DNA from: Candidatus Hydrogenedens sp.
Lineage (GTDB): Bacteria > Hydrogenedentota > Hydrogenedentia > Hydrogenedentales > Hydrogenedentaceae
Length of the DNA stretch: 64,000 nucleotides
Reading direction: 5' to 3'
Assembly (NCBI GenBank): GCA_049968235.1
Contig: JBMFRC010000009.1
Span: forward strand, 68,913-132,912
The translations under genes were made by a program, and so were the position numbers. Below are positions 13,885 to 64,000 of the stretch, one piece after another. The first letter of the stretch is position 1, and the number at the start of each line of letters is the position of its first letter. The notes under the pieces were generated by a model that made no database searches, was not told the DNA's origin, and worked only from the letters and a program-made list of their open reading frames with translations.

Positions 13885-14164
13885 ATAATTCTGTTCATTC
13901 CTTTTTGTTTTCAGTATGCAATATTTTATTTTACAATAACAACTCATTATTATAAAAATGTGTAATATCAAATAAACATTTGTAAAATATATCGATATAT
14001 AATATAATTTACACTTAAATGTTAACATCAAGGAAGTAGTGTGTTTGGAGAAGAAAACCAGATATTGATAAAGGAGATGTTAAGATGCGACATACTGAAA
14101 AAGTAAATGATTAAAAAGAATATAATGCGTTTAAAGAACTTATAAAAGAAAACTTATCAAGGCA

Positions 14165-14455
14165 GTGGATGATGAGGATTATGAACGGTTGAAGTTCATA
14201 TTCTCTATGTTAGAAATGCTTTTCCAGATAAAGGAAAGACTTAATATTTCAGAGAAAGAGAGCAATGAGTTTGATGAACAAGAATTAGAAGTGATAGAGA
14301 CGGAAACAGGCAAAGATGTTAAAAAGAACAGAAAGAAAAGAAGTAAACCCTCAGAGGATAAAAAGGATGAAATTCAAGAAACGAAAGAAGATATGGGTAA
14401 AGAAAATATAATTGAAGAAGAGGAAGATGTAATTAAAAAAGAAGCGGTAACATAG
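14165..14455 (+). CDS. Lys/Glu-rich low-complexity ORF, possibly the N-terminal part of the downstream Mrr_N-like gene.
   Basis: Highly charged K/E-rich sequence. Ends at TAG 14453-14455. The downstream ORF continues in the same frame. Confidence 0.35.
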   Translation: MDDEDYERLKFIFSMLEMLFQIKERLNISEKESNEFDEQELEVIETETGKDVKKNRKKRSKPSEDKKDEIQETKEDMGKENIIEEEEDVIKKEAVT

Positions 14456-14548
14456 GAAGAGGAGAAATCATCAAAGAAAAAGCAATCTCCACCAGAGAAA
14501 TTAGCTCGCGGTTTAAAAACACCTGAAAGAGCCTATGTCCTACCGGTA

Positions 14549-14956
14549 GTGGATTCCTTAATGGAATTTGGGGGAACTGCTCCTCGAAAAGAAGTTGTCA
14601 CAAGGGTATTTGAAAAAATGAAACATATCTTAAAAGATTATGATTTAGAACCCATGTCATACAATAAATATGTCCCTCGCTGGAAAGATACTTTACATTG
14701 GGTAAGATTACACTTACTTGAAAGGGGAATCCTTGAGAAAGGAACTGAAAAAGGTATTTGGACTTTAACAGAATATGGTAAAGCCTATTACGCTATGCAC
14801 AAAGATAGAACAGAAGAAAAGAAAGAGGTTGATATTCCTCCATACTCCGAAAAAAGTGAAGAAATGACTAGTGAAGGAACTTTTTCTGCTCCCGAAAAGC
14901 AGGAAGAAAATATAGAACATAACATTAGTGAACCAAGAGATATCTTAAATCAGTAG
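14549..14956 (+). CDS. Winged-helix protein with an Mrr N-terminal-like (Mrr_N) domain.
   Basis: VVDSLMEFGGTAPRKEVVTRVFEKMKHIL...YVPRWKDTLHWVRLHLLERGILEKGTEKGIWTLTEYGKAYY resembles the Mrr_N DNA-binding fold. The in-frame sequence upstream back to the TAG at 14453 (EEEKSSKKKQSPPEKLARGLKTPERAYVLP) also looks coding. Confidence 0.5.
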   Translation: MDSLMEFGGTAPRKEVVTRVFEKMKHILKDYDLEPMSYNKYVPRWKDTLHWVRLHLLERGILEKGTEKGIWTLTEYGKAYYAMHKDRTEEKKEVDIPPYSEKSEEMTSEGTFSAPEKQEENIEHNISEPRDILNQ

Positions 14957-15042
14957 ATAGAAATTATAGAATAAAAAATAAATCCCGATAATTTTACCTC
15001 TTTCCCAGAAATACAATCCTTTATTGACATGAAAGTATATCC

Positions 15043-49555: not shown

Positions 49556-50503
49556 CTTTTTTTGGTCCCTCAATGTATTCCGTTCCCAGAATACTCCATC
49601 CACATAGCCTTGAATTGTTCTATCAGAGTTGGCTAATTCTAATCGTTTTTCTGCTAAACAGCAATAAGTTTCGTCGATTTCTACCCCGCAATATTGCCTT
49701 CCTAATTTTTTAGCCACAACACATGTAGTCCCTACACCCGAAAACGGGTCAAATATAAAATCACCTTCTTTTGAACTGGCAAGGATAATTTTCGCTACGA
49801 GTTTCTCCGGTTTTTGTGTTGGATGGTCTGTATTCTCAGGCATAGACCAGAACGGCACAGTTATATCTGTCCATAAATTAGAAGGATATGTAAGCCGATA
49901 ATTGCCATCGGTTTCTACTTTCCAATCTTTAGGGTTACCTGTTTCATCACGATAAGGTGCAATTACTTTCCGTTTCAGCATTACCGCTTTGCTATTAAAA
50001 TAAAATTTATTTGAGACCGTTCCAAACCATATATCTTCCGAACAATTTTTCCAGTTATTCTTCGCACCTCTACCTTTTTCCCGTTCCCATGTAATTCGAT
50101 TTCGCACCTTAAAATATTTTGACATAACTCGATAAATAGCGGAGGAAGATTTCCAATCTCCACAGATATAAATAGAACCTGTCTGCTTTAATATCTTTCT
50201 CAACGGTTTTAACCAGGAATCCATCCATATTTCATACTCTTCCGAAGACATTTCACGAAATTTATTCGAATTAAAGTCTTTATGCAAATTATAAGGGGGG
50301 TCTATAAATAACAAATCAACAAATGATTCAGGTAAAAAGTCAATAACTTCAAACAAATCTTGATGAAGAATTTTGTTGGTTATCTTCTCAACCGATACAG
50401 GATGGTTAATTCGTAAAATCTGTTTCGTATAAATCGATACTTCTTGTTTTGAGAGGGTTGTTGTCCTATTCCGTCCTGCTTTAAGATGTTTATCTACTGA
50501 CAT
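49550..50503 (-). CDS. Beta-class DNA (N6-adenine or N4-cytosine) methyltransferase, apparently orphan.
   Basis: Motif IV DPPY (LLFIDPPYNL) comes before motif I (IFDPFSGVGTT). No restriction endonuclease gene is adjacent. Confidence 0.8.
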   Translation of the reverse strand: MSVDKHLKAGRNRTTTLSKQEVSIYTKQILRINHPVSVEKITNKILHQDLFEVIDFLPESFVDLLFIDPPYNLHKDFNSNKFREMSSEEYEIWMDSWLKPLRKILKQTGSIYICGDWKSSSAIYRVMSKYFKVRNRITWEREKGRGAKNNWKNCSEDIWFGTVSNKFYFNSKAVMLKRKVIAPYRDETGNPKDWKVETDGNYRLTYPSNLWTDITVPFWSMPENTDHPTQKPEKLVAKIILASSKEGDFIFDPFSGVGTTCVVAKKLGRQYCGVEIDETYCCLAEKRLELANSDRTIQGYVDGVFWERNTLRDQKKI

Positions 50504-50556
50504 ACCTACTTTTTTGTAGTCGTATTATATACGAGCAAATCCTTTTTAATAAATAA

Positions 50557-50915
50557 TGGTGGAGGCGGCGGGAATCGAACCCGCGTCCGAAGATGTTTCA
50601 GTGCGGACCTACTACATGCTTAGCCCATCCTTTATAGATTCGCCATTGCGGAGCGCCTCAGGGCGGGCTCACCACAACCGCTATGCGGGATAGTTACTGC
50701 CTTTCAGGCACCGCAAATCCCAAAAGGACAGACCTGCTGGTTGACGCCCCAGTCCGTTAGCAGGCAATCACGGGTGGGACGCGCTGCGCGTATTAGGCAG
50801 CGAGGGCCAATTCTTGATTGGCAGTTGTTTGCGACCGGCTTTTAACGAGGCCAACCGGTCAACCTCGGCATGCATTCCACACCTCAACCATCCCCGTCGA
50901 AACCTTTTCGCCCCC
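50557..50915 (-). ncRNA. ssrA: tmRNA (SsrA).
   Basis: On the - strand the 5' end is GGGGGCGAAAAGGTTTCGACGGGG. The 3' tRNA-like end is GGACGCGGGTTCGATTCCCGCCGCCTCCACCA. The internal tag reading frame ends ...GCC AAT CAA GAA TTG GCC CTC GCT GCC TAA (ANQELALAA-stop). Confidence 0.9.
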
Positions 50916-51079
50916 AGCAACATCCTATTATTCAATTGTTGTATTATATTATACGATATTTGATATCTAAAAATTTACAATAAAGATAAATTTTTTCAAT
51001 AATATATTATTCTATTACTTATGTTGTCCCTATCTTTCTGGCTAAGATAAAATTAGACATGTCGAGAGGAAGTGAAGTA

Positions 51080-52719
51080 ATGAAAAATTTCTTCTCAAAA
51101 AAATCCTGCAAATCAATCTACTACCCTTTTGGATTCATTTTTTCTATCGTGCTAATTAATACGATTGCAAATAGTGAAGGAAATCAACCAACATCTTTAT
51201 CTACAACAATAGACCCCATTACTCGTTATATTCACATTTCATATACAGTCCCTGCAGGTACACCCGGAGAAAAACAATCTTATGCTCATGATCTCCTATG
51301 GACAGACAACACATAGTCCTGAAACAAACCCATTACTACACAGGTTATACCGAAAGTAGAATTGATTATATTAAGTTAGTCCCCTTATCCACAGAACAGG
51401 TACAAATGTTAGAAAGCCAATTTGGAACACCCGACAAAATCGTTGCAGGCTATTTTGAACCTTACTCATGGGCATTCTTCGAGGATATACAGGAAAGCCT
51501 GCAACATCGAGAACCTATTTCCACATATAAGGAAGCACGAGTTAATATCGTAGACATCCAGGTGGGTCGCTTCGGCATGAAAGTCGTTTATGAATCACGC
51601 TTAACCGACCAATTTCTTTACAACACTATCGGCGACCCTATCGGCGGTGTTATCCCCCATACAAGTAATGTCGGAAAAATGCAACAAATGACCAACACAT
51701 TACAAACCGAACTCCAATATGCCCACGAATTAGGCTTAACCGCACACGCCAACTTCGGAGCGACCTACTGCTATCCCGACACACCATTACAAAGTGATTT
51801 TTCAAAACAACACCCCGATTGGATGACGGACGGATTATTGAGATATGACATACCCGAAGTTCGTCAATATATCTTATCCTTACTAAAAGAGACGCTTGAA
51901 ATTGGTGCAGATGGCATCTCCATAGATTTTTGTAGGTATCCCGGTGGTATTGACAAACCTGAAACTTGCAATCAATTCCTGCGAGAACTCAAAGCACTAC
52001 GCGAAGAATTTGCAAAAAAACGTGATAAATCCATACCCTTATTACTCCGTTTCCCGGCGGAAGGTGTAAGTCTCTGGAAAAATTTCGACTACAACACATG
52101 GATTCATGAAGGATTAGTTGATTACCTCTGCCCAAGCAACATCTAGGGCAGACATATGCACTTCGACATCACCCCATACAGCAACGCCGTTCGTGGCTCA
52201 ACATGCAAACTACTCCCCGTCATTGATGGATTAAGTTGGGGACTCGAAATACCCGCCCTATTCCTATGGCGTATCCATCAACTCTACCAGGCAGGCACCG
52301 ACGGCATTTATGTATACCAATCCGACGCACGCATCTGCACCAATAAACGACCAGAAGACAGACGCTGTATACGACTCATTTCCAGTAGCGAAGCAGTTCA
52401 TAACTGGTGGCAACGATACAACAAACAAAATCAACAATTTAGCAAACGCATCTGGATACAACCCTCCGAAGACGGAGACCTCGAATACCATAACTGGGAA
52501 CGCTGTCGAATCTGGGTAGAAGGAATTACCCCTAACGAGGTCCAAATCCTCCTCGATGGACAACTCACCAATACTTATACTCAACCTCCCTAAATACTTG
52601 GCGGAGAAGATTACACCTACGATAACCTTATCACCCCCGGCACACACACCCTCACCATCCACGCCAAAACACAAGACACCACTCTATCCCAAACTTTCAC
52701 CATCTCCGGCACAAAATAA
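51080..52719 (+). pseudogene. Disrupted GHL10/DUF4015-like glycoside-hydrolase-like gene (frameshift plus two in-frame stops).
   Basis: Signal-peptide ORF in frame 2 (MKNFFSKK...) runs into the frame-1 ORF near 51290-51300. Frame 1 then continues through TAG 52144-52146 and TAA 52591-52593 to TAA 52717. The motif GADGISIDFCRYPGG resembles GHL10 DGIHLDYIRYP. The C-terminus has an Ig-like beta segment (YTYDNLITPGTHTLTIHAKTQDTTLSQTFTISG). Confidence 0.55.
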
Positions 52720-52792
52720 TAAGAACATTTATATTTCCGAACATCTTTCTCCCTTTTAAGAGATGAAACATTTTTTGTTCCTAAATTTTGTT

Positions 52793-53056
52793 TTATAAGG
52801 ATAGAATTACACTATTAGAATCTACCCCATATTTATTGAAATATTGGTTTATATCCTTATAATGTTTTATTCGGTGAGGGTCCAAATAATACAATTCCCA
52901 ATGGCTAAGACTATTTATTATATAGTCCATGATTCTTTCATATTCTCTTTCATTCCGAATCACGTGTTCGTAATAATTCCTTTGCCATGACTTCCTGTTT
53001 TCGTTTTCCAATCCAAAATTCTTATCCCCACATATATAGCCATTTGTTGTCATCAT
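52793..53056 (-). mobile_element. C-terminal fragment of an IS200/IS605-family Y1 (REP-associated, RAYT-like) transposase. Probably a remnant.
   Basis: WQRNYYEHVIRNEREYERIMDYIINSL parallels the RAYT/TnpA(IS200) C-terminus (FWEHAIRN..DY...DYI..NP). The HUH-containing N-terminal half is missing. Confidence 0.5.
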
Positions 53057-53155
53057 CTTAAATCACTGTAATACTTTTGACAGTAATACCTACGATGATA
53101 CTTGTATTGGCAAATCCATGTGTTCACTTTAAATATTAATAACATCTACAGAATT

Positions 53156-54475
53156 TCAAAACTCGAATTTCAGTACCCAGGCGTGTTGGCATGGGATTTG
53201 GGCAGGGGAGACGCAAGGTGTAGTTATAACTATTTGCCCGTATTGGTCTTCCGCATTTACCGGAATGTCTGTGCCGAGTAAGGTTACTTTGGGCACGGTC
53301 TGGAACTCAGCTGGTTTGGGGATGGTCCATGTCTCGGGGGGCCATTTCAACGCTATGGCATATATTGCATTCCCTTTGCGTGTGAAACGGAAATTCTCCA
53401 TCTTCGGTGCATCTTTCCATACATCCGTTCCGTAGATAGCATCACCGTTAACTTCTAACCATTTGCCCATCTCCAACAACCGTTCCTGCATTATCTCCGG
53501 TATGCGTCCATCTGCGGATGGACCTATGTCCAATAGTAGGTTACCACCCCGTGAGACATTATCTATGAGCAGGTGAAGCAATTCCGCGGTGCTACGGTAA
53601 TTTTCCGCCGTCTCATTTCGGTTATAACCAAATGACCGACCCATACCCTGGCACTCTTCAAACAGTCCCTTTTCCATCAACGGACCCTCGGGGATATGTC
53701 CATACTCAGGTGTTGCAAAACCTCCATGTATATTACGACAATCTTTGCCCCAGCGGTCATTTACAACGATATCCTTTGGTGCGGGCGATTCATTAAACAG
53801 CCAAGCTAAAAACTCCGTGCTCCGCCAGACAGAACTCGGATGGTCCCACTCCCCATCAGACCAGAACACATCCGGTTGATAGCGAATAATTAAGTCTTTC
53901 ATCTGCGGTAACATATGTTCCTCTACATAGCGATGTACATCCTGTTTATACAGCGGGTTGAACCATTCATATAATGAGTAGTAAAACCCGGCTTTAAGTC
54001 CAGCATTCTTTACTGCACTGATAAGGTCGCCTGCGAGGTCTCGATGCGGTCCGATGTCCATTGCGTTCCAATTCCAACTTTGCATACTGGGCCACATACA
54101 AAAGCCATCGTGATGTTTGGATGTCAAAACGACATATTTCGCACCCGACCTTTTAAATATATCTGCCCATTGGTTCGGGTCATATAATTCTGCTTTGAAC
54201 ATTGGTGCAAAGTCCTGATATTGGAATTTTTCACCATATTTCTCAACATGGAATTTCCATGTGGCACCCTCTTTATTTTGCATGTGATTCCAATACCATT
54301 CCGAATAAGTTTCCTTGGGTGCCCATGACGGGACGGAATATACCCCCCAGTGAATAAAAATACCAAATTTGGCATCTTCAAACCATTGCGGATTAGGTCG
54401 CTGGTCCAATGATTCCCATGTGGGCTCATAAGCAGTGGCAATAGCGGTCGCAATAACAAAGGATGTTAATAACAT
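53156..54475 (-). CDS. Alpha-L-fucosidase (GH29), secreted.
   Basis: FGIFIHWGVYSVPSW and HHDGFCMWPS are GH29 motifs. N-terminal signal-like segment. Confidence 0.85.
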   Translation of the reverse strand: MLLTSFVIATAIATAYEPTWESLDQRPNPQWFEDAKFGIFIHWGVYSVPSWAPKETYSEWYWNHMQNKEGATWKFHVEKYGEKFQYQDFAPMFKAELYDPNQWADIFKRSGAKYVVLTSKHHDGFCMWPSMQSWNWNAMDIGPHRDLAGDLISAVKNAGLKAGFYYSLYEWFNPLYKQDVHRYVEEHMLPQMKDLIIRYQPDVFWSDGEWDHPSSVWRSTEFLAWLFNESPAPKDIVVNDRWGKDCRNIHGGFATPEYGHIPEGPLMEKGLFEECQGMGRSFGYNRNETAENYRSTAELLHLLIDNVSRGGNLLLDIGPSADGRIPEIMQERLLEMGKWLEVNGDAIYGTDVWKDAPKMENFRFTRKGNAIYAIALKWPPETWTIPKPAEFQTVPKVTLLGTDIPVNAEDQYGQIVITTPCVSPAQIPCQHAWVLKFEF

Positions 54476-54500
54476 AAGATATGCTCCTATCGTTTAAAAT

Positions 54501-56867
54501 TTATTTTACTTTTAATTCTGTTATAACAATGCTATATGGTGGAATTTCCATTTCAGGGAAGGCTTTCTTATTGATTTTTTCTTCCTTCAGCCAGACGCCA
54601 GGTTCAGTATCAGGCAGGTTAATGGACATTGGGTCTTTGCCCGTGAGTATCCATGCGGTTTTCGGTGGTGTCACCTCCTTGCCTGCTACACCTACATGGA
54701 TATTAATTGCCCTATCCATGGGGTTTACCACAGAGAGAGTTAATATCCCCTCTTGCCCATCTTTCCAGGCAGAGAAAACATCAATTGGTACCATAGATAC
54801 CCCTGCCTGATTGCTATCGGATAGCGGTTTTACCTCGACAGCTACAGGCACAGAACCGAAATGCTGACGGTACAGCATCAGGGTAAGCCCTGTCGTATCA
54901 AAGAAAGCAGTTGTTTTGGTAGTTTTAATGGCAGATATTACATTTACAGTCTGGGCATAATTTGCCATCGTTATTACATCACTATTGCGGAAAAATTCAT
55001 GCAGACCAATAGCCACGCCTAAGGCATCTTTCAGGTGGTAAACACAACCTAACTCACCATAGACATGGTCGCCATACCAATAGTTCCATTCGTCCATTGC
55101 AATGGGCACAAATTTCTCCTTTAAAGCAGGTATCGTTTCCAAATAACCTTTATGATTTTTAACTTTGGCTTTTATTCTCTCGGCTAACTGGTAAACATGT
55201 TCAAGCACATCCTTTTTTTCTCCACAATAAAAGTGTTCACTTATAAAATCCATATTATTTGCACAATTTTCCAGCATTTTCTGGCTCCAGATACCCATAT
55301 TTTCGCCTACACCCACTAACTTAATATTCGGGTCAACTGCTTTCATTGCTTGCGCAAATTCATTATGCCTCTTAACATAGTCATCCACAGGGATATGTCC
55401 CAATTGCCACTCGCCATACATTTCATTGCCAACGCCCCAGTAGGTAATTTTGTATGGTTCGGGGTTGCCATTATCGGCACGCCATTTGCCCATAGGAGTA
55501 TCAACTGAGCCATTAGCATATTCGACCATATCACGTGCTAACTGCACATCGCCCAGACCTGTATTAACCACCGCCAACGGTTCTGTTCCTATTTCTCTAC
55601 AGAATTGGATAAATTCGTCTATACCAAAATCATTGGTATCAATACCTCCCCAGGCTGGGTTCTTGCGTGTTGGACGTTTATCCGGGTCTCCAATGCCGTC
55701 TTTCCAGTTATAACCACTGACGAAATTGCCACCAGGCCAGCGATAAATGGGCGAATTAAGTTGTCTAAGCAAGGTTAATGTATCCGCTCTCATCCCTTTG
55801 ATATTATCTCCAGGCATAAGTGAGACCGCACCAATGAATAGGTTACCCTGCCCTGTAGCAAGAATAGCAAATTGAGCAGGTTTGCCATCTTTATCCACTT
55901 TCAATCGGAATGTATATTTCTGATAATCCTGTGAAATATTTTGGATAATAGCGGGTTCGCCCAATAAAGTGTCGCCAGAACGAAGGACAATTTTAACTAT
56001 AACATCCGTATGCGTCGATTTTAGCACAATCCTACCCACATATTCCTTACCTGCAACCACTTCTAATCCATCCTGCACCAGCCCCCGTTCATGCCTCTGA
56101 TTTAGCAGTATAACAGGCGAATACCAACTCGTATATGGATGAATCTGATCAATAAAGAGCATCATGTCCGATGGGAACAATTTCCATGGGGAATCGTTGG
56201 TGTTGATGAGGTAGAAGAACTTGCGGTCTTCCAGCGTTTCTGCCCAGATACCACCATAAATACAGCGACCTAAATGTTCGATAAATTGACCGTAGATAAA
56301 TGGATGTATCGGAGTGCCTTTCTTTGAGGGGTCGATAGAAATGTTCATATCACCTATCACCATATCTGATATTTTTTCTAATTTTATATCATCAAATATG
56401 GCGGAACCTTTCGCCAAACCCCAACCCCCAAAAAGGCAATTCACCATAATTCGTGTTTGTGAACCGACAAAAAAGGTAGATTCAACATATTTCCAATCAT
56501 TCGTTCCGGATAATGCTTCTGTGCGAGCACCATCAATTCCATGAACATTGAGTAATGCACCCACACCATTTTCTAATTGAATGTTATCTGTTTTAATCCA
56601 GCCGGAGAGTTTGTATTGGGCAAATGGGTCAACATCAATTTCATTGAACCAGGATAAATCACCACCTTCGGTGGAAGAAATCTGGACTGCATTGCCACTT
56701 TTCCCCGGTACGGGATATTGGAATTCACCTTTACCCTGCCAGACCCTTGTCTGCCAGTTATCAGGGGCAGTTGAGCCCTGTTCGAAGGCTTCTTCAAACA
56801 TGATTTGAGCAAAAACAAAAGGGGTTAAAAGGATAAACATTACGAATATGACTGAGTTTGGTTTCAT
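54501..56867 (-). CDS. Secreted GH51 alpha-L-arabinofuranosidase with an N-terminal carbohydrate-binding (galactose-binding-like) module.
   Basis: Signal peptide. YWGVGNEMYGEWQLGH carries the GH51 acid/base Glu. IAMDEWNYW carries the GH51 nucleophile Glu. An N-terminal beta-sandwich region of about 170 aa. Confidence 0.8.
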   Translation of the reverse strand: MKPNSVIFVMFILLTPFVFAQIMFEEAFEQGSTAPDNWQTRVWQGKGEFQYPVPGKSGNAVQISSTEGGDLSWFNEIDVDPFAQYKLSGWIKTDNIQLENGVGALLNVHGIDGARTEALSGTNDWKYVESTFFVGSQTRIMVNCLFGGWGLAKGSAIFDDIKLEKISDMVIGDMNISIDPSKKGTPIHPFIYGQFIEHLGRCIYGGIWAETLEDRKFFYLINTNDSPWKLFPSDMMLFIDQIHPYTSWYSPVILLNQRHERGLVQDGLEVVAGKEYVGRIVLKSTHTDVIVKIVLRSGDTLLGEPAIIQNISQDYQKYTFRLKVDKDGKPAQFAILATGQGNLFIGAVSLMPGDNIKGMRADTLTLLRQLNSPIYRWPGGNFVSGYNWKDGIGDPDKRPTRKNPAWGGIDTNDFGIDEFIQFCREIGTEPLAVVNTGLGDVQLARDMVEYANGSVDTPMGKWRADNGNPEPYKITYWGVGNEMYGEWQLGHIPVDDYVKRHNEFAQAMKAVDPNIKLVGVGENMGIWSQKMLENCANNMDFISEHFYCGEKKDVLEHVYQLAERIKAKVKNHKGYLETIPALKEKFVPIAMDEWNYWYGDHVYGELGCVYHLKDALGVAIGLHEFFRNSDVITMANYAQTVNVISAIKTTKTTAFFDTTGLTLMLYRQHFGSVPVAVEVKPLSDSNQAGVSMVPIDVFSAWKDGQEGILTLSVVNPMDRAINIHVGVAGKEVTPPKTAWILTGKDPMSINLPDTEPGVWLKEEKINKKAFPEMEIPPYSIVITELKVK

Positions 56868-56946
56868 ATTTGTTTCTCCATGTTTGGATTTAATAATTGT
56901 TATGGCAAAAAAGGAAAGATAAATGCAAATAAAGTTGGGGGAGAAT

Positions 56947-56974
56947 CGGACGGGTCGGACGGGTCAGACGGGGT
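56947..56974. repeat. 9-bp tandem repeat array A, (CGGACGGGT)x3 in GTCRGACRR register, just 5' of tRNA-Pro.
   Basis: The same family is seen in arrays at 57113-57168, 57544-57598 and 57786-57822. Confidence 0.7.
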
Positions 56975-57024
56975 GATGGTGAAATTGCTATTTTTGAGGT
57001 AGAATAGATATAATAGTGTTGTTT

Positions 57025-57102
57025 CGGGGCGTAGCGCAGTCCGGCTAGCGCACTTGGTTTGGGTCCAAGGGGTCGCCGGTTCAAATCCGGCCGCCCCGAC
57101 CA
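57025..57102 (+). tRNA. tRNA-Pro (TGG).
   Basis: Acceptor CGGGGCG/CGCCCCG, anticodon stem-loop CTTGG-TTTGGGT-CCAAG, T-arm GCCGG-TTCAAAT-CCGGC, discriminator A, CCA encoded. Confidence 0.85.
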
Positions 57103-57112
57103 TGAAGTTAAA

Positions 57113-57168
57113 GGGTCAGACAAGTCAGACGGGTCGGACAGGTCAGACAAGTCGGACAAGTCGGACGA
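57113..57168. repeat. 9-bp tandem repeat array B, (GTCRGACRR)x6, immediately 3' of tRNA-Pro.
   Basis: Reads GTCAGACAA GTCAGACGG GTCGGACAG GTCAGACAA GTCGGACAA GTCGGACGA. Confidence 0.75.
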
Positions 57169-57195
57169 AAAAACACAAAATAGAAAGGAAGGGTT

Positions 57196-57786
57196 ATGTC
57201 TGATGGGAGGTTAATTCCTCCACATGGGGGCTATCGGAGATTGCGGAGTTTTCAAGTAGCACAGGAGATATATGACGCGACGGTATTGTTTTGTTAGCGG
57301 TTTATTGATAAGAAGTCAAGAACATATGACCAGATGATTCAGGCGAGCAGGAGTGGGGTTCAAAATATTGCAGAAGGGAGTGTGGCGTCTGCGACATCAA
57401 AGAAGATGGAGATTAAGTTGACAGGTGTGGCAAAGGCAAGTTTGGAGGAGTTGTTGCGGGATTATGAGGATTATTTGAGACAACATGGTTTGAAACAATG
57501 GGGTAAGGATTCGCCGGAGGCAGGAAGGATAAGGGAGATGTATAAGTCGGACAGGTTGGACAAGTTAGACGAGGTGGACCCGTCAGACAAGTCGGATATT
57601 TATGGGATAAGGACAGCGTCGGCAGAGGTTGCGGGGAATACGGTGATTTGTTTGATTCATCAGGCGACATATTTGTTGAGGAAGCAGTTAGAACGTTTGG
57701 AACGGGAGTTTTTGGAGAAGGGTGGTTTTACGGAGCGGATGTATTGGGAACGAAAACGTTGGCGAGAGAGAGAGAAGAAAGAGTAG
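57196..57786 (+). CDS. Four-helix-bundle protein (TIGR02436-like, the 23S rRNA IVS-protein family) with a C-terminal suffix domain. The frame is interrupted by one in-frame TAG at 57295-57297.
   Basis: N-terminal helix MSDGRLIPPHGGYRRLRSFQVAQEIYDATVLFC, then TAG, then RFIDKKSRTYDQMIQASRSGVQNIAEGSVASATSKKMEIKLTGVAKASLEEL. All in one frame and matching the family consensus (...QIRRAAVSIPANIAEGS...). Repeat array C lies inside the coding sequence (KSDRLDKLDEVDPSDKSD). Confidence 0.6.
57544..57598. repeat. 9-bp tandem repeat array C (degenerate, x6), inside the four-helix-bundle coding sequence.
   Basis: Reads GTCGGACAG GTTGGACAA GTTAGACGA GGTGGACCC GTCAGACAA GTCGGATAT. Confidence 0.6.
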
Positions 57787-57822
57787 AGTCGGACGGGTCG
57801 GACGGGTCGGACAAGTCGGACA
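57786..57822. repeat. 9-bp tandem repeat array D, (GTCGGACRR)x4, immediately after the four-helix-bundle stop.
   Basis: Reads GTCGGACGG GTCGGACGG GTCGGACAA GTCGGACA. Confidence 0.75.
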
Positions 57823-57958
57823 TTTAAAACAGATAAAAATGAAAAAAAATAAACGAATCAAATTGAAGGCTATACCTCCCGTTAATTTGCCAGGATAATC
57901 CTTCCTATTTTACTATTTGAGTATTCTAATTTTATGAAATTAATAGAAAGGGATTGTC

Positions 57959-60900
57959 ATGGAAAGAAACATTTGTCATTTCATTACGAATCATGAACAA
58001 AAAAGTCTTCGGGAACGTATAAGAGAACTTATTACTATCAGCAAAGAACTTAAAATTTTAGTGGGTTTCTTCTATTTTTCCGGGATAACAGAGTTGTATG
58101 AAAGTTTACAAAAAAATCCTAACATTGTGATTAAAGTGCTTATAGGTATGGATGTCGATAAATTAATTAATAAGTTGATTGAATATGCCAATCCAGACAC
58201 CTCATTAACTGATAAAGATAGAATTGACTATTTTTTTAAATCATTAAAAACGGCTCTTACTTCCGAAGATATGGACCGTCCCGAGCCCTACCGACAGATT
58301 TCTTATTTCCTGAAACTCATCCAGGAAAATCGTATTATCATCCGAAAAACAAGAAAACCCAATCATTCAAAACTTTATATCTTCAAAATATCAGAAGGGC
58401 AGGATTTAATTCGCGATACGCTATTCATCACGGGAAGTAGCAATTTGACACACGCAGGTCTATCGGGACAGGGCGAGTTCAATGTTGAAATAAGTGATTA
58501 TGGAACAAAAGAAGCGGAAGCGTTTTTTGACGATTTATGGGATGATGCAGTGAAAATCACAGAAACAGAGGAAACAAAAAAGAAACTAATCCAGATTATC
58601 AATACGGAAACAATGTTTGCATCGATAAAACCTTTTGAGGCTTATACCCTGGTCCTGAAATCCTACCTTGATGCAAATAGTATGAAAGAGGTTAGTTTAG
58701 AGTCCCTTAAAGAAACTATGGAGAAAAAAGGATATGTGCCTTATAAATATCAGATGGACGCTGTTCAATTAGCTTTATCTATTATCAATGCTTATGACGG
58801 CGTTATTATTGCCGACGTGGTCGGTTTGGGCAAAACGATTATTGCCTGTGCCGTAGCCCGACTTTTAAGAAAACGCGGAATTGTCATCTCTCCACCGGGG
58901 ATTATGGGCGATGAGTTGAGGCAATATGGTTGGCGTAAGTATATCGAAGAATTTGGTCTCTATGACTGGGAGGTTTTTTCCAGCGGGAAACTTGATACCA
59001 TATTGAAAACAGTTCGTAGATGTGAAGATATTGAGGTGATTATCATTGATGAAGCACATAAATACCGCAATCAGGATACAGAAAGTTACGAACTGTTAAA
59101 AAATATATGTCTGCATAAAAAAGTTATCCTTTTAACTGCAACTCCGTTCAGTAATTCTCCCAGTGATGTATTTTCATTACTAAAATTATTTACTGTTCCG
59201 GGCAAATCAAAGTTATCCCTGACTGATAATTTAGATTTTCTGTTTAATGAATACAAAAATACTTTTAATCAATTATCACATATACAAAAATACCATGATT
59301 CGCAAGATGCAGAGAAAAAACAAAAAGCACAGACCTATTATAATAAGTTATTCGGTTCAGATAATATTGATTTAACAACGGTAAAAAAGCGGACAAAATA
59401 CCTTGCCAATACAATTCGCTCAATTATCCAGCCTGTGCTTATACGGCGAAATCGGATTGACCTACAAAATGACCCGGATTACCAAAACGAGATTAAGGAT
59501 TTATCCAGATTAGAAAATCCGAAAGAGTTGTTCTATGAGTTAAGCCCGGACCAATCGCTGTTTTACGATAAAGTTATTAGCACTTACTTTGGTGAAAACG
59601 GTGCATTTTCAGGTGCTATTTATCGCCCGTATTATTACGAAGAAAAATCCGATTTGGAAGATATCGATGAGGATATAGAAACCAATGGTAAGGATGGGAA
59701 AAAAGTGGAGGAACAGAGAGAACAACTAAGCCAGAAAAACTTATATGATTTTATGAGACGATTATTAGTGAAACGATTTGAGAGTTCTTTCGGTGCGTTC
59801 CAACAAAGCGTTAAAAATTTTATTGAGATTCATAAAAAGATACTTCAATTCATTGAAAAAACAAACAAATATATCCTCAATCGCAAGTTATTGGAACATA
59901 TTTATGAAATGGACCCGGATGAAATTGACGAGGAATTAGAACGATTTAAAGAAGAAATTGCAAAATTAGATAAACCCGACTCACATATCCATAAGGTTTA
60001 TGATTTGAAGGACTTCCACTTCAAGGATGAGTTTATTAAAAATATTAATGATGATATTCAATTGTTTGAAGGAATTCTCAAAGAGATTGAAGACCTTCAT
60101 TTGATACAGAAAGACCCGAAATCGAAATCTTTAGCAGAAGAAATCCCAAAAATTATCCAGAATAAAGAAGAAAATGAATCCAAACGAAAGATAGTTATCT
60201 TTACTGAGTATATAGATACAGCCCGCCATTTAGAAGAACAGATGAAGCACTTATTACCCGAAAACTTGAAAAATCGTATTTTAACAGTCATAGGAAAGCC
60301 GTCCGATGACCGTTATGAGACGCTATTAAAAAATTTCGATGCCAGTTATGAAAAGAACCAACAGGAAGATACCTATGACATTCTTATAACAACAGACCGA
60401 CTTTCCGAAGGATTTAATCTGAATCGTGCTGGCGCAGTTATTAATTATGATATTCCGTGGAACCCGACACGGGTCATACAGCGTGTAGGACGAATAAATC
60501 GAATCAGTAAAAAGGTCTACAATACTTTATATATCTACAATTTCTTCCCAACAGAAACAGGTGCTGATGTTGTCAAAAGTCGTGAAATAGCCCAGCATAA
60601 GATGTTCCTCATTCATAATACAATTGGTGAAGATGCCCGTATTTTTGAGCCCGATGAGGAACCTACTGCTTCGCGATTATACACCAAAGTTATGACTCTT
60701 CCGGATGAACTCGAGCCAGAAAGTTTATATACGACCATAAAGAAGAAATATTACGAGATAAAAAAGAACTATCCGGAAGTCATTCGAACCATAGAGAAAT
60801 ACCCTTCACGTGTAAAAACGGCAAAGAAATACCACACCTACAACCTCGTTGTATTTTTAAGAAAAGGCAGAAGTATATTTGTAAAATATACCGATGGAAC

Positions 60901-61357
60901 ACCTGGCACAACCGCTGAAAAACCGCTTGAAGATGCATTGAATTATATCCAGTGTGAATATGAAGAACAACCCCTTCACATTTCAGACAAATTCTGGAAT
61001 AATTATATATCTCTCATTGAAGTAGCAACTACGGATTTTTCAAGAGGAAGGAAAATTTGGACTGAGGCAATGACCAATATTAAAACAATATTGCAACAAT
61101 TACCCGCAGAATTGGATGACTATAAAAGTTTCCTTAACATATTATCAGAAGATATTTCATACTATCGGACATTGTCCGATTATACCATCCGACGAATTCG
61201 AAATCTGAAACTGGATAAGGAAAAACAATTTAAAGAATTTAAAGAGGTCATTGATAAACTGCGAAACGATTTAGGAGATGATTACCTTACTAAAATTAAA
61301 AATGACCTAATATCTATTAAACCAGAAGTTATTATTGCGATGGAGAATCAACCTTAG
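57959..61357 (+). CDS. Fusion of a PLD-family (HKD) nuclease domain with an SNF2/SF2 helicase, 1132 aa.
   Basis: HKD motif NHSKLYIF...FITGSSNLTHAG near the N-terminus. Helicase motif I ADVVGLGKT, motif II IIIDEAHKYRN, motif III LLTATPFSN, motif V-VI ILITTDRLSEGFNLNRAGAVINYDIPWNPTRVIQRVGRINR. Confidence 0.8.
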   Translation: MERNICHFITNHEQKSLRERIRELITISKELKILVGFFYFSGITELYESLQKNPNIVIKVLIGMDVDKLINKLIEYANPDTSLTDKDRIDYFFKSLKTALTSEDMDRPEPYRQISYFLKLIQENRIIIRKTRKPNHSKLYIFKISEGQDLIRDTLFITGSSNLTHAGLSGQGEFNVEISDYGTKEAEAFFDDLWDDAVKITETEETKKKLIQIINTETMFASIKPFEAYTLVLKSYLDANSMKEVSLESLKETMEKKGYVPYKYQMDAVQLALSIINAYDGVIIADVVGLGKTIIACAVARLLRKRGIVISPPGIMGDELRQYGWRKYIEEFGLYDWEVFSSGKLDTILKTVRRCEDIEVIIIDEAHKYRNQDTESYELLKNICLHKKVILLTATPFSNSPSDVFSLLKLFTVPGKSKLSLTDNLDFLFNEYKNTFNQLSHIQKYHDSQDAEKKQKAQTYYNKLFGSDNIDLTTVKKRTKYLANTIRSIIQPVLIRRNRIDLQNDPDYQNEIKDLSRLENPKELFYELSPDQSLFYDKVISTYFGENGAFSGAIYRPYYYEEKSDLEDIDEDIETNGKDGKKVEEQREQLSQKNLYDFMRRLLVKRFESSFGAFQQSVKNFIEIHKKILQFIEKTNKYILNRKLLEHIYEMDPDEIDEELERFKEEIAKLDKPDSHIHKVYDLKDFHFKDEFIKNINDDIQLFEGILKEIEDLHLIQKDPKSKSLAEEIPKIIQNKEENESKRKIVIFTEYIDTARHLEEQMKHLLPENLKNRILTVIGKPSDDRYETLLKNFDASYEKNQQEDTYDILITTDRLSEGFNLNRAGAVINYDIPWNPTRVIQRVGRINRISKKVYNTLYIYNFFPTETGADVVKSREIAQHKMFLIHNTIGEDARIFEPDEEPTASRLYTKVMTLPDELEPESLYTTIKKKYYEIKKNYPEVIRTIEKYPSRVKTAKKYHTYNLVVFLRKGRSIFVKYTDGTPGTTAEKPLEDALNYIQCEYEEQPLHISDKFWNNYISLIEVATTDFSRGRKIWTEAMTNIKTILQQLPAELDDYKSFLNILSEDISYYRTLSDYTIRRIRNLKLDKEKQFKEFKEVIDKLRNDLGDDYLTKIKNDLISIKPEVIIAMENQP

Positions 61358-61380
61358 ACAATTATATAAAGGGGATAAAA

Positions 61381-64000
61381 ATGAACCTGTCTGCCAAAAG
61401 ACATTTAGAGAACTTTATCGGAGCAACAAATTATGATGGGTTACAAAAATCGCTTATATGCTTTTTACAAGAAAAGACGGAACACTTTTCAGAGATGCCT
61501 GAGGACTATTCATTTCATTTTCGGGATGATAATTTTAATGAAGTCCAAAAAGTTGGTGAATTATCTCTAACACCGTCGTATGCTGAAGAAGGAGATAGTA
61601 CAGAAAAATTTATCGTGGTTACACTCCATACCACAGGGGGACTAACAGAGCGGAGTAGTAAAAAGCGTCAGTTCGACAAAGGGAAACAAATATTAAAAAC
61701 TTTGTATCAGACAGGCAATTTTGACCTCATCGGCGGTTTTTTCATTTTTTATGATGACGATTTTAATTATCGTTGGAGTTTGATTTATCAAGAACCGGCG
61801 GGCAGAAGATTACAATATAACCCCTACAAACGATATACCTATTTCGTATCACGAAATTTGACAAATAAAACCTTCATTCAGCAGTTATGTGCGGATGAAT
61901 CCTTTGACAGGTTAAATGACATCAAATCCGCATTCTCCGTAGAAAAGGTTACCCGAGAGTTTTATAACAAGGTGGCACAATGGTATTTCTGGGTGCTATC
62001 TGATGAAAAGATTAAATATCCCCCATCCGTTCCTAACCAAAACAACGGAAGAGAGTTGTTTTTAATCCGTCTCTTATCTCGATTGATTTTTATCTGGTTC
62101 ATGAAAGAGAAAAAACTTATTCCGGGAAAATTGTTCGATAGACAGGAATTAAGAAGCTATCTGCATGATATTGAAGATGACGGAACTGCTTATTACAATG
62201 CCATCCTCCAGAATTTATTCTTCGCTACACTGAACACACCTCAGGACAGACGACAATTCCGCAATGATAAACAATATCAAGGCAAGAATAACGATTACAT
62301 GAACCATAATAAATACAGGTATAAGGAACTATTCAAAAATGAAACGGATATAGAAGAGCTCTTCCAACCGATACCGTTCCTGAACGGCGGTCTATTTGAG
62401 TGTCTGGATAAAAGTAGAAAAGACCCAAAGAACCCGACAGAAGGAGAACTACGGCTGGATGGCTTCTCTTCATCGCATCAAAAACATCCTAATATTAGAA
62501 ATATCTTCTTTTTCGGTGAGGAACAAACGGTCGATATTAGTAAATATTTTGGGGACAATTCATATAAATCCGCAAAGGTTTACGGAATTATTGAAATATT
62601 AAAGGATTACAATTTCACGATTGATGAAAATGTTCCCGGTGATGAAGAAGTTGCCCTTGACCCGGAACTACTCGGAAAAATATTTGAAAATCTGCTTGCC
62701 AGTTATAACGAAGAGACATCGACCACCGCCAGAAAAGCCTCCGGCAGTTATTACACACCCCGCGAGATTGTAGAATTCATGTGTCGTGCTTCTCTGGTGG
62801 AATACCTGAAATTATGCCTGATTAAAAAGGGCTCTGCGGTTGATGTTAACGAGAAATCGCTGGATGAAAAACTTCATCAATTATTAGACCCTCATCAGGA
62901 AGAACTGCCCGTTTTTTCCGAAACGGAAAAGGATACACTCATCCATGCCATTAACAATCTTAAAGTATTGGACCCTGCGGTAGGTTCGGGAGCCTTTTTG
63001 ATGGGAATGTTACAACAACTTGTCCATATCCTATCTAAACTTGACCCACATAATGAGATGTGGAAACAACAGCAGATAGAGGGGGTAAAAAAATCTGTTT
63101 CCGACCCACAACTCCGGAATGAGTTAATCAACAAAATTGAAGAACAATTTCAAAAGAATGAACTGGACTACGGTAGGAAATTATATCTCATCCAGAACTG
63201 CCTGTTTGGTGTGGATATTCAACCTATTGCCATACAACTGGCAAAACTCCGCTTCTTTATCGCACTACTGGTGGATGAAAAGGTTGATAAAACACAGAAA
63301 AACAGCGGGATAGAACCTCTGCCTAATCTTGAAACAAAACTCGTCCCCGCAGATACTCTTCGTTCCTTAAACATAAAAACCGAAGACCTGTCTTCACCCG
63401 AAATACAGGAAGAAGAAAGGAAATTATTCGAGTTAAGAAAAAAATATTTTAGCGAATCAGACCAGAGAAAGAAAGAAACGATAAAAGAGGAGGATAAGAA
63501 AACGCGAAATAGAATAGAAGAATTACTTAAACAGGATTCTTTATATAATGATAAATTAGAAACTATCCTTGCATGGGACCCCTATGATGCCCATATTTCT
63601 GCGGACTGGTTCGACCCTGAATGGATGTTCGGCATCGACACAGGTTTCGACATCGTTATCGCTAATCCGCCGTATATCCAACTGCAAAAAGAGGGAGGGA
63701 AACTCGCTAAATTATACGAAAAACAAAACTACCAGACCTTTGCCCGCACGGGCGATATTTATGCCCTTTTTTACGAAAAAGGAATTCAAATACTGAGAGA
63801 TGGAGGACATCTTTGCTTCATTACCTCAAATAAATGGATGCGTGCGGGCTATGGTGAAAAATTGCGGAGTTTTTTTACACAATACAACCCATTGCTTCTT
63901 ATCGATTTGGGACCTGGTGTGTTTGAAAATGCTACTGTCGATACCAATATATTGCTGATACAAAAAAAGCAAACTCCAGCAAAACACCTCAAAGCCGTAA
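61381..64000 (+). CDS. Large gamma-class N6-adenine DNA methyltransferase (Eco57I/PglX/DrmMI/type IIG-like). 3' partial at the window edge.
   Basis: GSYYTPREIVEFM, motif I VLDPAVGSGAFL and motif IV IANPPYIQ, with motif I before motif IV. Long N-terminal region of about 400 aa, as in PglX-like enzymes. No stop before the window ends. Confidence 0.8.
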   Translation, partial: MNLSAKRHLENFIGATNYDGLQKSLICFLQEKTEHFSEMPEDYSFHFRDDNFNEVQKVGELSLTPSYAEEGDSTEKFIVVTLHTTGGLTERSSKKRQFDKGKQILKTLYQTGNFDLIGGFFIFYDDDFNYRWSLIYQEPAGRRLQYNPYKRYTYFVSRNLTNKTFIQQLCADESFDRLNDIKSAFSVEKVTREFYNKVAQWYFWVLSDEKIKYPPSVPNQNNGRELFLIRLLSRLIFIWFMKEKKLIPGKLFDRQELRSYLHDIEDDGTAYYNAILQNLFFATLNTPQDRRQFRNDKQYQGKNNDYMNHNKYRYKELFKNETDIEELFQPIPFLNGGLFECLDKSRKDPKNPTEGELRLDGFSSSHQKHPNIRNIFFFGEEQTVDISKYFGDNSYKSAKVYGIIEILKDYNFTIDENVPGDEEVALDPELLGKIFENLLASYNEETSTTARKASGSYYTPREIVEFMCRASLVEYLKLCLIKKGSAVDVNEKSLDEKLHQLLDPHQEELPVFSETEKDTLIHAINNLKVLDPAVGSGAFLMGMLQQLVHILSKLDPHNEMWKQQQIEGVKKSVSDPQLRNELINKIEEQFQKNELDYGRKLYLIQNCLFGVDIQPIAIQLAKLRFFIALLVDEKVDKTQKNSGIEPLPNLETKLVPADTLRSLNIKTEDLSSPEIQEEERKLFELRKKYFSESDQRKKETIKEEDKKTRNRIEELLKQDSLYNDKLETILAWDPYDAHISADWFDPEWMFGIDTGFDIVIANPPYIQLQKEGGKLAKLYEKQNYQTFARTGDIYALFYEKGIQILRDGGHLCFITSNKWMRAGYGEKLRSFFTQYNPLLLIDLGPGVFENATVDTNILLIQKKQTPAKHLKAV

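What the first reader, a model, noticed from the sequence alone, without database searches (positions are those of the whole stretch)
14165..14956. Three otherwise intact genes are each interrupted by a single in-frame TAG codon
Case 1: 14165-14956, a K/E-rich N-terminal part plus an Mrr_N-like winged helix, split only by TAG 14453-14455 (...KKEAVT*EEEKSSKKK...). Case 2: the four-helix-bundle gene 57196-57786 with TAG at codon 34, where both flanks match the family consensus. Case 3: the GHL10-like gene with TAG 52144-52146, although that gene also has a frameshift and a TAA and so is clearly decaying. TAG is otherwise a rare but genuine terminator here (it ends the ORFs at 1697, 14956 and 34960), so genome-wide recoding is unlikely. 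Still, two clean single-TAG interruptions in 64 kb deserve a look. Possible causes are context-dependent amber read-through or suppression, recent pseudogenisation, or consensus sequencing errors.
Basis: seen in the sequence. Interest (0 to 1): 0.55.

Follow-up and report, generated by a model that had tools for sequence, protein, structure and literature searches.

The report
Three ordinary decaying genes, not recoding
The in-frame TAG codons are real, but they are ordinary nonsense mutations in three dying genes of an uncultured Hydrogenedens bacterium, mixed with TAA and TGA stops, a frameshift and a deletion, so nothing points to unusual decoding of TAG.

Summary
They are not sequencing errors: two other assemblies of the same species (about 99.9% identical) carry them. 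"Otherwise intact" holds only for case 2.

- **Case 1 (Mrr_N-like gene).** Its real start is ATG 14085. It also carries an in-frame TAA (14112-14114) and a 1-nt deletion (14143/14144). Its closing TAG (14954) and a following TAA (14972) sit where the closest homologue has CAG. Relatives have intact genes of 296-301 aa at the same syntenic position.
- **Case 3.** Compared with an intact 746-aa orthologue it has an internal deletion of about 600 nt with a frame change, plus TGG>TGA, CAG>TAG and TAC>TAA.
- **Case 2 (four-helix-bundle gene).** It has one lesion, GAG>TAG. Six contigs of a sister species all have GAG.

The premature stops total TAG x4, TAA x3 and TGA x1, so TAG is not favoured. TAG ends conserved genes normally (ExbD, TlyA/FtsJ-like, the four-helix-bundle gene itself). 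The window holds no tRNA-CUA, and no unusual RNA structure follows any of the TAGs. These are ordinary, recent pseudogenes that were the same in all three assemblies, two of them in a variable defence/glycosidase islet. Interest is low.

The parts
14085..14974 (+). Case 1 pseudogene. It is the disabled positional orthologue of a 296-306 aa Hydrogenedentes protein made of an N-terminal helix, a K/E-rich linker, an Mrr_N-like winged helix and a tail. Remnant tail homology runs on to about 15019.
   Evidence: Intact homologues P0002-P0011. Same synteny (fliW-csrA-DUF8042 | gene | NTP_transferase) in L007, L008 and L009. tblastn HSPs fall in two frames.
14071..14087 (+). Shine-Dalgarno AAGGAG (14071-14076) and the ancestral start ATG (14085-14087) of case 1
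   Evidence: The AAGGAG-spacer-ATG arrangement is the same as in the intact homologue's locus L003. P0004 aligns to the window as 'GDVKMRHTEKVND*KEYNAFKELIKENL' with E=9e-8.
14112..14114 (+). Case 1 lesion 1: in-frame TAA
   Evidence: Aligned to ACG (L003), ATA (L009) and ATG (L007). Identical in L001 and L002.
14143..14144 (+). Case 1 lesion 2: 1-nt deletion (frameshift) between these two bases
   Evidence: The window has a single-column gap against three orthologues. The frame change shows. Identical in L001 and L002.
14453..14455 (+). Case 1 lesion 3: the reported in-frame TAG, in the K/E-rich linker
   Evidence: Homologues have His, Lys, Thr or Glu near this column. Identical in L001 and L002.
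14534..14788 (+). Mrr_N-like winged-helix domain of case 1, still with all family-invariant residues
   Evidence: Pfam PF14338 at 2.6e-10, residues 124-208 of the 14165 frame. Invariant columns are listed. The first possible start after the TAG is GTG 14549, which lies inside the domain.
14954..14974 (+). Case 1 tail: TAG 14954-14956 and TAA 14972-14974, each aligned to CAG in the closest homologue (probable tail truncation)
   Evidence: DNA alignment with L003. The tblastn alignment continues through both stops to 15019. Tail length varies among homologues, so this lesion is less certain.
57196..57786 (+). Case 2: four-helix-bundle plus suffix-domain gene, intact apart from one nonsense codon
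   Evidence: TIGR04258 at 1.2e-20 and TIGR02436 at 3.2e-8. The syntenic orthologue P0013 is 190 aa and intact.
57295..57297 (+). Case 2 lesion: TAG at codon 34, derived from GAG (Glu) by one G>T change
   Evidence: GAG in L004, L005, L006, L010, L011 and L012. The family has Glu, Asp, Gly or Asn here. The exact TAG context is present in L013 and L014.
51059..52719 (+). Case 3 pseudogene: remnant of a 746-aa secreted GHL10-like protein
   Evidence: Intact orthologue at L010 1182-3422. The window lacks about 600 nt of the 5' half and changes frame there.
51289..51291 (+). Case 3 lesion: TGA where the orthologue has TGG, at the deletion and frameshift junction
52144..52146 (+). Case 3 lesion: TAG where the orthologue has CAG (Gln)
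   Evidence: Shared by L014.
52591..52593 (+). Case 3 lesion: TAA where the orthologue has TAC (Tyr)
   Evidence: Shared by L014.

Best explanation
All three loci are ordinary pseudogenes of a Candidatus Hydrogenedens species. Normal mutation disabled them: point substitutions, mostly in the GC>AT direction, created TAG, TAA and TGA codons, and there is also a 1-nt deletion and a deletion of about 600 nt.

Cases 1 and 3 each carry several independent lesions and cannot yield a full-length product under any reading of TAG. Case 2 is the youngest, a single GAG>TAG nonsense mutation in an accessory gene at the head of a defence islet.

TAG is read as a normal terminator. The ribosome stops at each premature stop, and the downstream parts are at most translated weakly from chance internal starts.

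Shown directly: the lesions, their presence in three assemblies, intact syntenic orthologues, and TAG ending conserved genes. Inferred: loss of function, and the absence of a suppressor elsewhere in the genome.
For: 1. Real, not error. L001 and L002 (two other MAGs, 99.92% identical over 5.3 and 3.5 kb) carry the case 1 TAA, frameshift and TAG. L013 and L014 carry the exact case 2 TAG context, and L014 also the case 3 TAG and TAA.
2. Intact orthologues.
   - Case 1: genes of 296-301 aa in identical synteny.
   - Case 2: a 190-aa gene with GAG in six contigs.
   - Case 3: a 746-aa gene with CAG and TAC.
3. Multiple lesion types.
   - Case 1: TAA 14112, the deletion at 14143/14144, TAG 14453, and TAG 14954 / TAA 14972.
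   - Case 3: deletion and frameshift, TGA, TAG and TAA.
   - Totals: TAG x4, TAA x3, TGA x1.
4. TAG is a working stop.
   - It ends ExbD (profile 8-127 of 128 covered) and the TlyA/FtsJ-like gene (profile to 179 of 181, with RecN starting in overlap).
   - It ends the four-helix-bundle gene at the family's usual C-terminus, with the TAG conserved in orthologues.
   - Stop use in 56 ORFs is TAA 36, TAG 10, TGA 10.
5. No recoding apparatus was seen.
   - The window has no tRNA-CUA.
   - The 100 nt starting at each TAG fold no better than shuffles, z = +0.4 to +0.85.
6. Recency. dN/dS against the sister species is 0.12 for case 3 and 0.22 for case 2, against 0.07 for the intact neighbour. Most of the divergence therefore built up under selection. 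One assembly has K104R at a family-invariant residue of case 2.
Against: - Case 2 is clean apart from its TAG, and case 1 keeps every invariant residue of the Mrr_N domain. Sequence alone therefore cannot exclude residual function or low-level read-through for those two.
- Only 64 kb of the genome was visible, so a suppressor tRNA elsewhere is not excluded.
- The three assemblies probably come from one study and are nearly clonal. 'Fixed' is shown only for that population.
- The ancestral codon at 14453 cannot be determined, because the linker is low-complexity and aligns poorly.
Confidence: 0.9

Rival explanations
1. Programmed or context-dependent amber read-through, or a suppressor tRNA, lets the ribosome pass the TAGs so that full-length proteins are made.
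For: Three TAGs sit at positions where both flanks match the family. All three are the same in three assemblies. Case 2 has no other lesion.
Against: - Orthologues have sense codons (GAG, CAG), not a conserved stop.
- Cases 1 and 3 would still be broken by TAA, TGA, a frameshift and a deletion.
- The contexts are not shared (TAG-GAA, TAG-CGG, TAG-GGC), and no downstream structure appears.
- The window has no tRNA-CUA.
- TAG ends conserved genes, some of them overlapping or abutting the next gene's start.
- No paper in the held library reports such a thing for Hydrogenedentes.
Confidence: 0.03
2. The TAGs are consensus sequencing or assembly errors, and the genes are intact in the organism.
For: The window comes from a metagenome-assembled genome. 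The case 1 frameshift lies next to an A-run, the kind of place where some sequencing platforms miscount.
Against: The same lesions appear in two other assemblies that differ from the window by scattered SNPs. Substitution errors that produce stop codons at five or more sites in three assemblies are implausible.
Confidence: 0.03
3. The downstream fragments are still expressed as shorter functional proteins from internal starts: a stand-alone Mrr_N domain for case 1, and a 150-aa four-helix-bundle fragment from ATG 57334 for case 2. The NCBI annotation of the MAGs reads them this way.
For: NCBI-derived records call a 147-aa 'winged helix-turn-helix domain-containing protein' (P0001, from TTG in L001 and L002) and a 150-aa 'four helix bundle suffix domain-containing protein' (P0014). 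The domain residues are intact.
Against: - In the window the TTG start used for P0001 is TTA. The first available start, GTG 14549, lies inside the Mrr_N domain, and I saw no Shine-Dalgarno motif before it.
- The 150-aa case 2 fragment lacks residues 1-46, which include most of the first part of the TIGR02436 match (residues 17-87).
- No homologue of either family has such a short form, apart from fragments on short contigs.
Confidence: 0.1
4. TAG is reassigned to an amino acid across the whole genome.
For: None beyond the three in-frame TAGs.
Against: TAG terminates at least six conserved ORFs at the expected protein ends. TAA and TGA occur as premature stops in the same pseudogenes.
Confidence: 0.005

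Closest known systems
Bacterial pseudogenes formed by nonsense and frameshift mutations (ordinary gene decay, most frequent in accessory and defence regions)
   Same: Intact syntenic orthologues exist in relatives. Stops of all three kinds, an indel and a deletion are mixed together. The inferable substitutions run mostly in the GC>AT direction. Two of the three genes lie in a variable islet between the tmRNA gene and tRNA-Pro, next to restriction/defence genes.
   Different: Nothing differs in any material way. The only slightly unusual point is that TAG is the commonest premature stop (4 of 8) in a genome of 36% G+C. That is within small-number noise.
Programmed stop-codon read-through and amber suppression (suppressor tRNAs, pyrrolysine decoding, TAG-recoded phages)
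   Same: In-frame TAG codons flanked on both sides by conserved coding sequence.
   Different: The stop is not conserved in orthologues. The window has no tRNA-CUA, no stimulatory structure and no shared context. TAG is used as a normal terminator, and non-TAG lesions sit in the same genes.
Four-helix-bundle (TIGR02436, Pfam 23S_rRNA_IVP) proteins with the TIGR04258 suffix domain
   Same: Case 2 matches both models and has the SDxSD-type repeat spacer between them. Like many members, it lies beside restriction/defence genes, and several JGI records name homologues 'restriction system protein'.
   Different: The copy here has a nonsense codon at position 34.

Membership tests
Pseudogene (disabled orthologue) | An intact orthologue exists at the same genomic position in relatives | tested here: met
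   Case 1: L007, L008 and L009, 296-301 aa, same neighbours. Case 2: L004, L005 and L010, 190 aa. Case 3: L010, 746 aa.
Pseudogene (disabled orthologue) | One or more disabling lesions that are real rather than assembly errors | tested here: met
   The lesions are identical in two further assemblies, GCA_049969095.1 and GCA_049971155.1. Raw reads were not available.
Pseudogene (disabled orthologue) | No full-length product is made | not testable with these tools
   This needs proteomics or ribosome profiling. It is inferred for cases 1 and 3 from the multiple lesions of different kinds.
Programmed amber read-through or suppression | The in-frame stop codon is conserved among orthologues | tested here: not met
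   Orthologues have GAG (case 2) and CAG (case 3). Homologues vary at the case 1 site.
Programmed amber read-through or suppression | A suppressor tRNA (CUA anticodon) or pyrrolysine machinery is present | tested here: inconclusive
   None is among the four tRNAs and one tmRNA of the window. The rest of the genome could not be scanned.
Programmed amber read-through or suppression | A stimulatory context or RNA structure lies 3' of the stop | tested here: not met
   Fold z-scores are +0.42, +0.85 and +0.59 against shuffles. The 3' contexts differ.
Genome-wide TAG reassignment | TAG is not used as a terminator of conserved genes | tested here: not met
   TAG ends the ExbD, TlyA/FtsJ-like and peroxiredoxin genes and the four-helix-bundle gene at the expected protein ends.
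Mrr_N (PF14338) winged-helix domain proteins (case 1 C-terminal part) | A match to the Pfam model above the gathering score | tested here: met
   40.7 bits against a cut-off of 29.5, E = 2.6e-10, profile positions 4-84 of 87.
Four-helix-bundle plus suffix domain (TIGR02436 / TIGR04258) (case 2) | Matches to both NCBIfam models above their cut-offs | tested here: met
   TIGR04258: 73.1 bits against 40. TIGR02436: 33.8 bits against 24.
GHL10 (PF02638) glycosyl-hydrolase-like (case 3) | A match to the Pfam model above the gathering score | tested here: not met
   18.3 bits against a cut-off of 27.9 for the longest fragment. The label is only a resemblance. The intact L010 orthologue was not scanned.

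The most novel reading that the evidence does not exclude
The clean single TAG in the four-helix-bundle gene (57295-57297), which is the same in all three assemblies, is not a dead end. On this reading, low-level natural amber read-through or a strain-borne suppressor passes it, giving throttled or conditional expression of an accessory protein that sits at the head of a PLD-SNF2 helicase / type IIG-like defence islet.
Probability: 0.03. Interest if true: 0.4.

Novelty: already known. Interest (0 to 1): 0.08.

Why it matters
It matters mainly as a negative result. This window gives no sign of amber recoding, suppression or pyrrolysine use in Hydrogenedentes.

There are two practical consequences:
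- The NCBI-style gene calls of 96, 147 and 150 aa at these loci are fragments of pseudogenes and should not be treated as proteins.
- A gene should not be called 'otherwise intact' until orthologues have been used to check its true start. Here that check revealed a TAA and a frameshift upstream of the apparent ORF.

Tried and rejected
- **Sequencing error.** Rejected, because two other MAGs share the lesions.
- **Read-through structure.** Folding the 100 nt starting at each TAG gave z-scores of +0.4 to +0.85.
- **Suppressor tRNA.** ARAGORN and Rfam found only tRNA-Leu(AAG), Cys, Leu(UAA) and Pro(UGG) plus a tmRNA.
- **Other hidden single-stop interruptions.** I scanned all six frames for pairs of open stretches of at least 60 codons separated by one stop. 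Besides cases 1 and 3, the scan gave only adjacent real genes or antisense shadows. The TAG after the ExbD gene, for example, is followed by an open stretch with no Pfam match that overlaps the end of the convergent TPR gene.
- **GTDB representative genomes.** A scan for the case 2 site found nothing, so the species appears not to be among the representatives.
- **P0014.** Looking up its contig failed, as it is not in the index.
- **Literature.** Searches on Hydrogenedentes with 'stop codon', and on the four-helix-bundle / 23S IVS protein family, returned nothing relevant.
- **Programmed frameshift in case 1.** I considered it and rejected it. The shift is a simple 1-nt deletion relative to three orthologues, and an in-frame TAA lies upstream of it.

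Full report
**Observation**

The window is bacterial DNA of about 36% G+C, with a tmRNA gene and four tRNA genes. Its closest database proteins are labelled Candidatus Hydrogenedens sp. MAG.
- 14453-14455;
- 57295-57297, which is codon 34 of 57196-57786;
- 52144-52146.

The domain calls hold. Mrr_N (PF14338) matches at 2.6e-10. The four-helix-bundle model TIGR02436 and its suffix domain TIGR04258 both match above their cut-offs. The GHL10 match is only weak and below threshold. Among 56 long ORFs the stops are TAA 36, TAG 10 and TGA 10.

**Case 1 (14165-14956) is not otherwise intact**

A database search with the fused protein found only 12 relatives. Ten of them are full-length proteins of 274-403 aa with a conserved N-terminal helix (consensus MKEYDxFKQFIKxEIxKAVDEEDxER...), a K/E-rich linker, the Mrr_N-like domain and a tail.

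Three of their loci (L007, L008, L009) show the same neighbourhood as the window: DUF8042, csrA and fliW on one side and NTP_transferase on the other. They are therefore positional orthologues.

The conserved N-terminal 24 codons are present in the window, but in a different reading frame. With tblastn, P0004 aligns as GDSKMTHNNKENDIKDYDAFKNLVKREL against GDVKMRHTEKVND*KEYNAFKELIKENL at 14073-14156 (E = 9e-8). The rest of the protein aligns in the frame of 14165.

DNA alignment with three orthologues places the lesions:
- a single-base deletion between 14143 and 14144;
- a TAA at 14112-14114, aligned to ACG, ATA and ATG in the orthologues;
- the true start at ATG 14085, 8 nt after an AAGGAG. 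The intact homologue's locus L003 has the same AAGGAG-spacer-ATG arrangement.

At the 3' end, the terminating TAG (14954) and a TAA (14972) both align to CAG codons of L003, and similarity continues to about 15019. Tail length varies in this family, so I count this as a probable lesion and not a certain one.

The gene therefore has at least three disabling lesions of three kinds, probably five. After the TAG at 14453, the first possible start is GTG 14549, which lies inside the winged-helix domain.

**Case 2 (57196-57786) is the one clean case**

The family is very large (8000 hits at E <= 1e-10). The closest full-length member, P0013 (91% identical by BLASTP), is syntenic: it follows the GH39-like gene and tRNA-Pro and precedes a large SNF2 helicase.

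Six contigs of that sister species have GAG where the window has TAG. The family has Glu, Asp, Gly or Asn at that column. The only other length difference is an in-frame 18-nt indel in the SDxSD repeat spacer. The lesion is a single G>T change.

**Case 3 (51059-52719)**

A metagenome contig (L010) carries an intact 746-aa orthologue next to the tmRNA gene. Against it the window has:
- lost about 600 nt of the 5' half, with a change of frame;
- TGG>TGA at 51289;
- CAG>TAG at 52144;
- TAC>TAA at 52591.

**The lesions are real**

Contigs from two other assemblies of the same species cover the sites. L001 and L002 are 99.92% identical to the window, differing by 4 and 3 SNPs. They carry the case 1 TAA, deletion and TAG. 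L013 and L014 hold the exact case 2 TAG context, and L014 also holds the case 3 TAG and TAA.

The lesions are therefore the same in every assembly examined. One assembly (L013) also has K104R at a family-invariant residue of case 2, a small hint of relaxed constraint.

**TAG is a normal stop here**

- TAG ends the ExbD gene, with the Pfam profile covered to position 127 of 128.
- It ends the TlyA/FtsJ-like gene, with the profile covered to 179 of 181 and the RecN gene starting in overlap.
- It ends a peroxiredoxin gene.
- It ends the four-helix-bundle gene itself, where the TAG is conserved in orthologues and falls at the family's usual C-terminus.

The window holds no tRNA-CUA. The 100 nt starting at each TAG fold no better than shuffled sequence (z = +0.42, +0.85, +0.59). 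The bases that follow the TAGs differ (GAA, CGG, GGC).

A six-frame scan for other pairs of long open stretches split by one stop found nothing further of note. The premature stops in the three genes total TAG x4, TAA x3 and TGA x1, so TAG has no special status.

**Timing**

dN/dS against the sister species is 0.12 for case 3 and 0.22 for case 2, compared with 0.07 for the intact GH39-like neighbour. Most of the divergence accumulated under purifying selection, so inactivation is recent relative to the split between the two species.

The single-base changes that can be inferred (CAG>TAG twice, GAG>TAG, TAC>TAA, TGG>TGA) all run from G/C to A/T. This fits the usual bacterial mutation bias (my own knowledge).

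**Setting**

Cases 2 and 3 lie in a stretch of higher G+C (0.40-0.43 against about 0.36) between the tmRNA gene and tRNA-Pro and just beyond it. This stretch includes fucosidase and GH39-like genes. It is followed by a PLD-SNF2 helicase (DrmD-like, HKD+Snf2) and a type IIG-like methyltransferase/restriction gene. The sister species has extra AbiJ-TIR and 320-aa genes here that the window lacks. Gene loss is common in variable accessory regions of this kind.

**Conclusion**

These are ordinary pseudogenes. The evidence does not support recoding, suppression or sequencing error. What remains unknown is whether a suppressor tRNA exists elsewhere in the genome, and whether the clean case 2 TAG is occasionally read through. 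Neither can be tested with 64 kb and no reads or proteome. The literature search found nothing on stop-codon peculiarities in Hydrogenedentes.

Noticed in passing
window 56946-56972, 57113-57167, 57788-57821 (and inside the gene at about 57545-57600): Same-orientation arrays of a 9-nt unit, GTCRGACRR, flank tRNA-Pro and both ends of the four-helix-bundle gene. The same unit encodes the SDxSD spacer inside the gene. The 16-mer GTCRGACRRGTCRGAC occurs 9 times against 0 expected. Orthologous loci have the arrays too, with different copy numbers. Their role is unknown: recombination or insertion scars of a mobile gene cassette is one possibility.
   Followed up: partly
window 57196-57786 compared with 54501-56867: Between the two species the four-helix-bundle gene has dS 0.12, while the adjacent GH39-like gene has dS 0.72. 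Family members from other phyla (Bacteroidia, Methylomirabilis, Aureabacteria) are still about 65-70% identical in protein. This suggests recent horizontal exchange or gene conversion of this small gene.
   Followed up: no
window 57959-64000: A defence-type pair follows case 2: a 1132-aa PLD plus SNF2 helicase (best PADLOC matches DrmD and 'HKD+Snf2') and then a large type IIG-like restriction-methyltransferase ORF that runs off the window. In the sister species the second gene is instead a DUF1156 methyltransferase.
   Followed up: partly
window 52721-53153, compared with L010 3424-6002 and L005 1-1885: The sister species has a TIR/AbiJ_NTD3 gene and a 320-aa gene with no family match between the GHL10-like gene and the fucosidase gene. 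The window has only about 430 nt there. It is a variable defence islet next to the tmRNA gene.
   Followed up: no
L013 (GCA_049969095.1, JBMFPN010000128.1), corresponding to window 53165-53477 and beyond: This contig matches the window almost perfectly from 53478 to 57657. It then diverges sharply over the last roughly 300 nt of the fucosidase gene (68 differences) and continues into a DnaE (DNA pol III alpha) gene instead of the case 3 pseudogene. This is either a structural variant or a chimeric contig.
   Followed up: no
window 14513-14515; L001 2354-2797; L002 1430-1873: The only SNP in the case 1 gene among the three assemblies is TTA (window) against TTG (L001, L002). The TTG is what allowed a 147-aa 'winged helix-turn-helix' protein (P0001) to be called in the other two MAGs. 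That annotation describes a pseudogene fragment.
   Followed up: yes
window 14085-14974 and loci L003, L007-L009: The case 1 protein family (N-terminal helix, K/E-rich linker, Mrr_N-like winged helix) has only 12 detectable relatives among 5.8 billion proteins. In the three relatives whose loci show the neighbourhood (L007, L008, L009) it sits next to the fliW-csrA flagellar regulator genes. Its function is unknown.
   Followed up: partly
window 50001-58000: G+C rises to 0.40-0.43 here against about 0.36 elsewhere, over the stretch from the tmRNA gene to tRNA-Pro. This is consistent with an acquired or compositionally distinct islet that holds two of the three pseudogenes.
   Followed up: no
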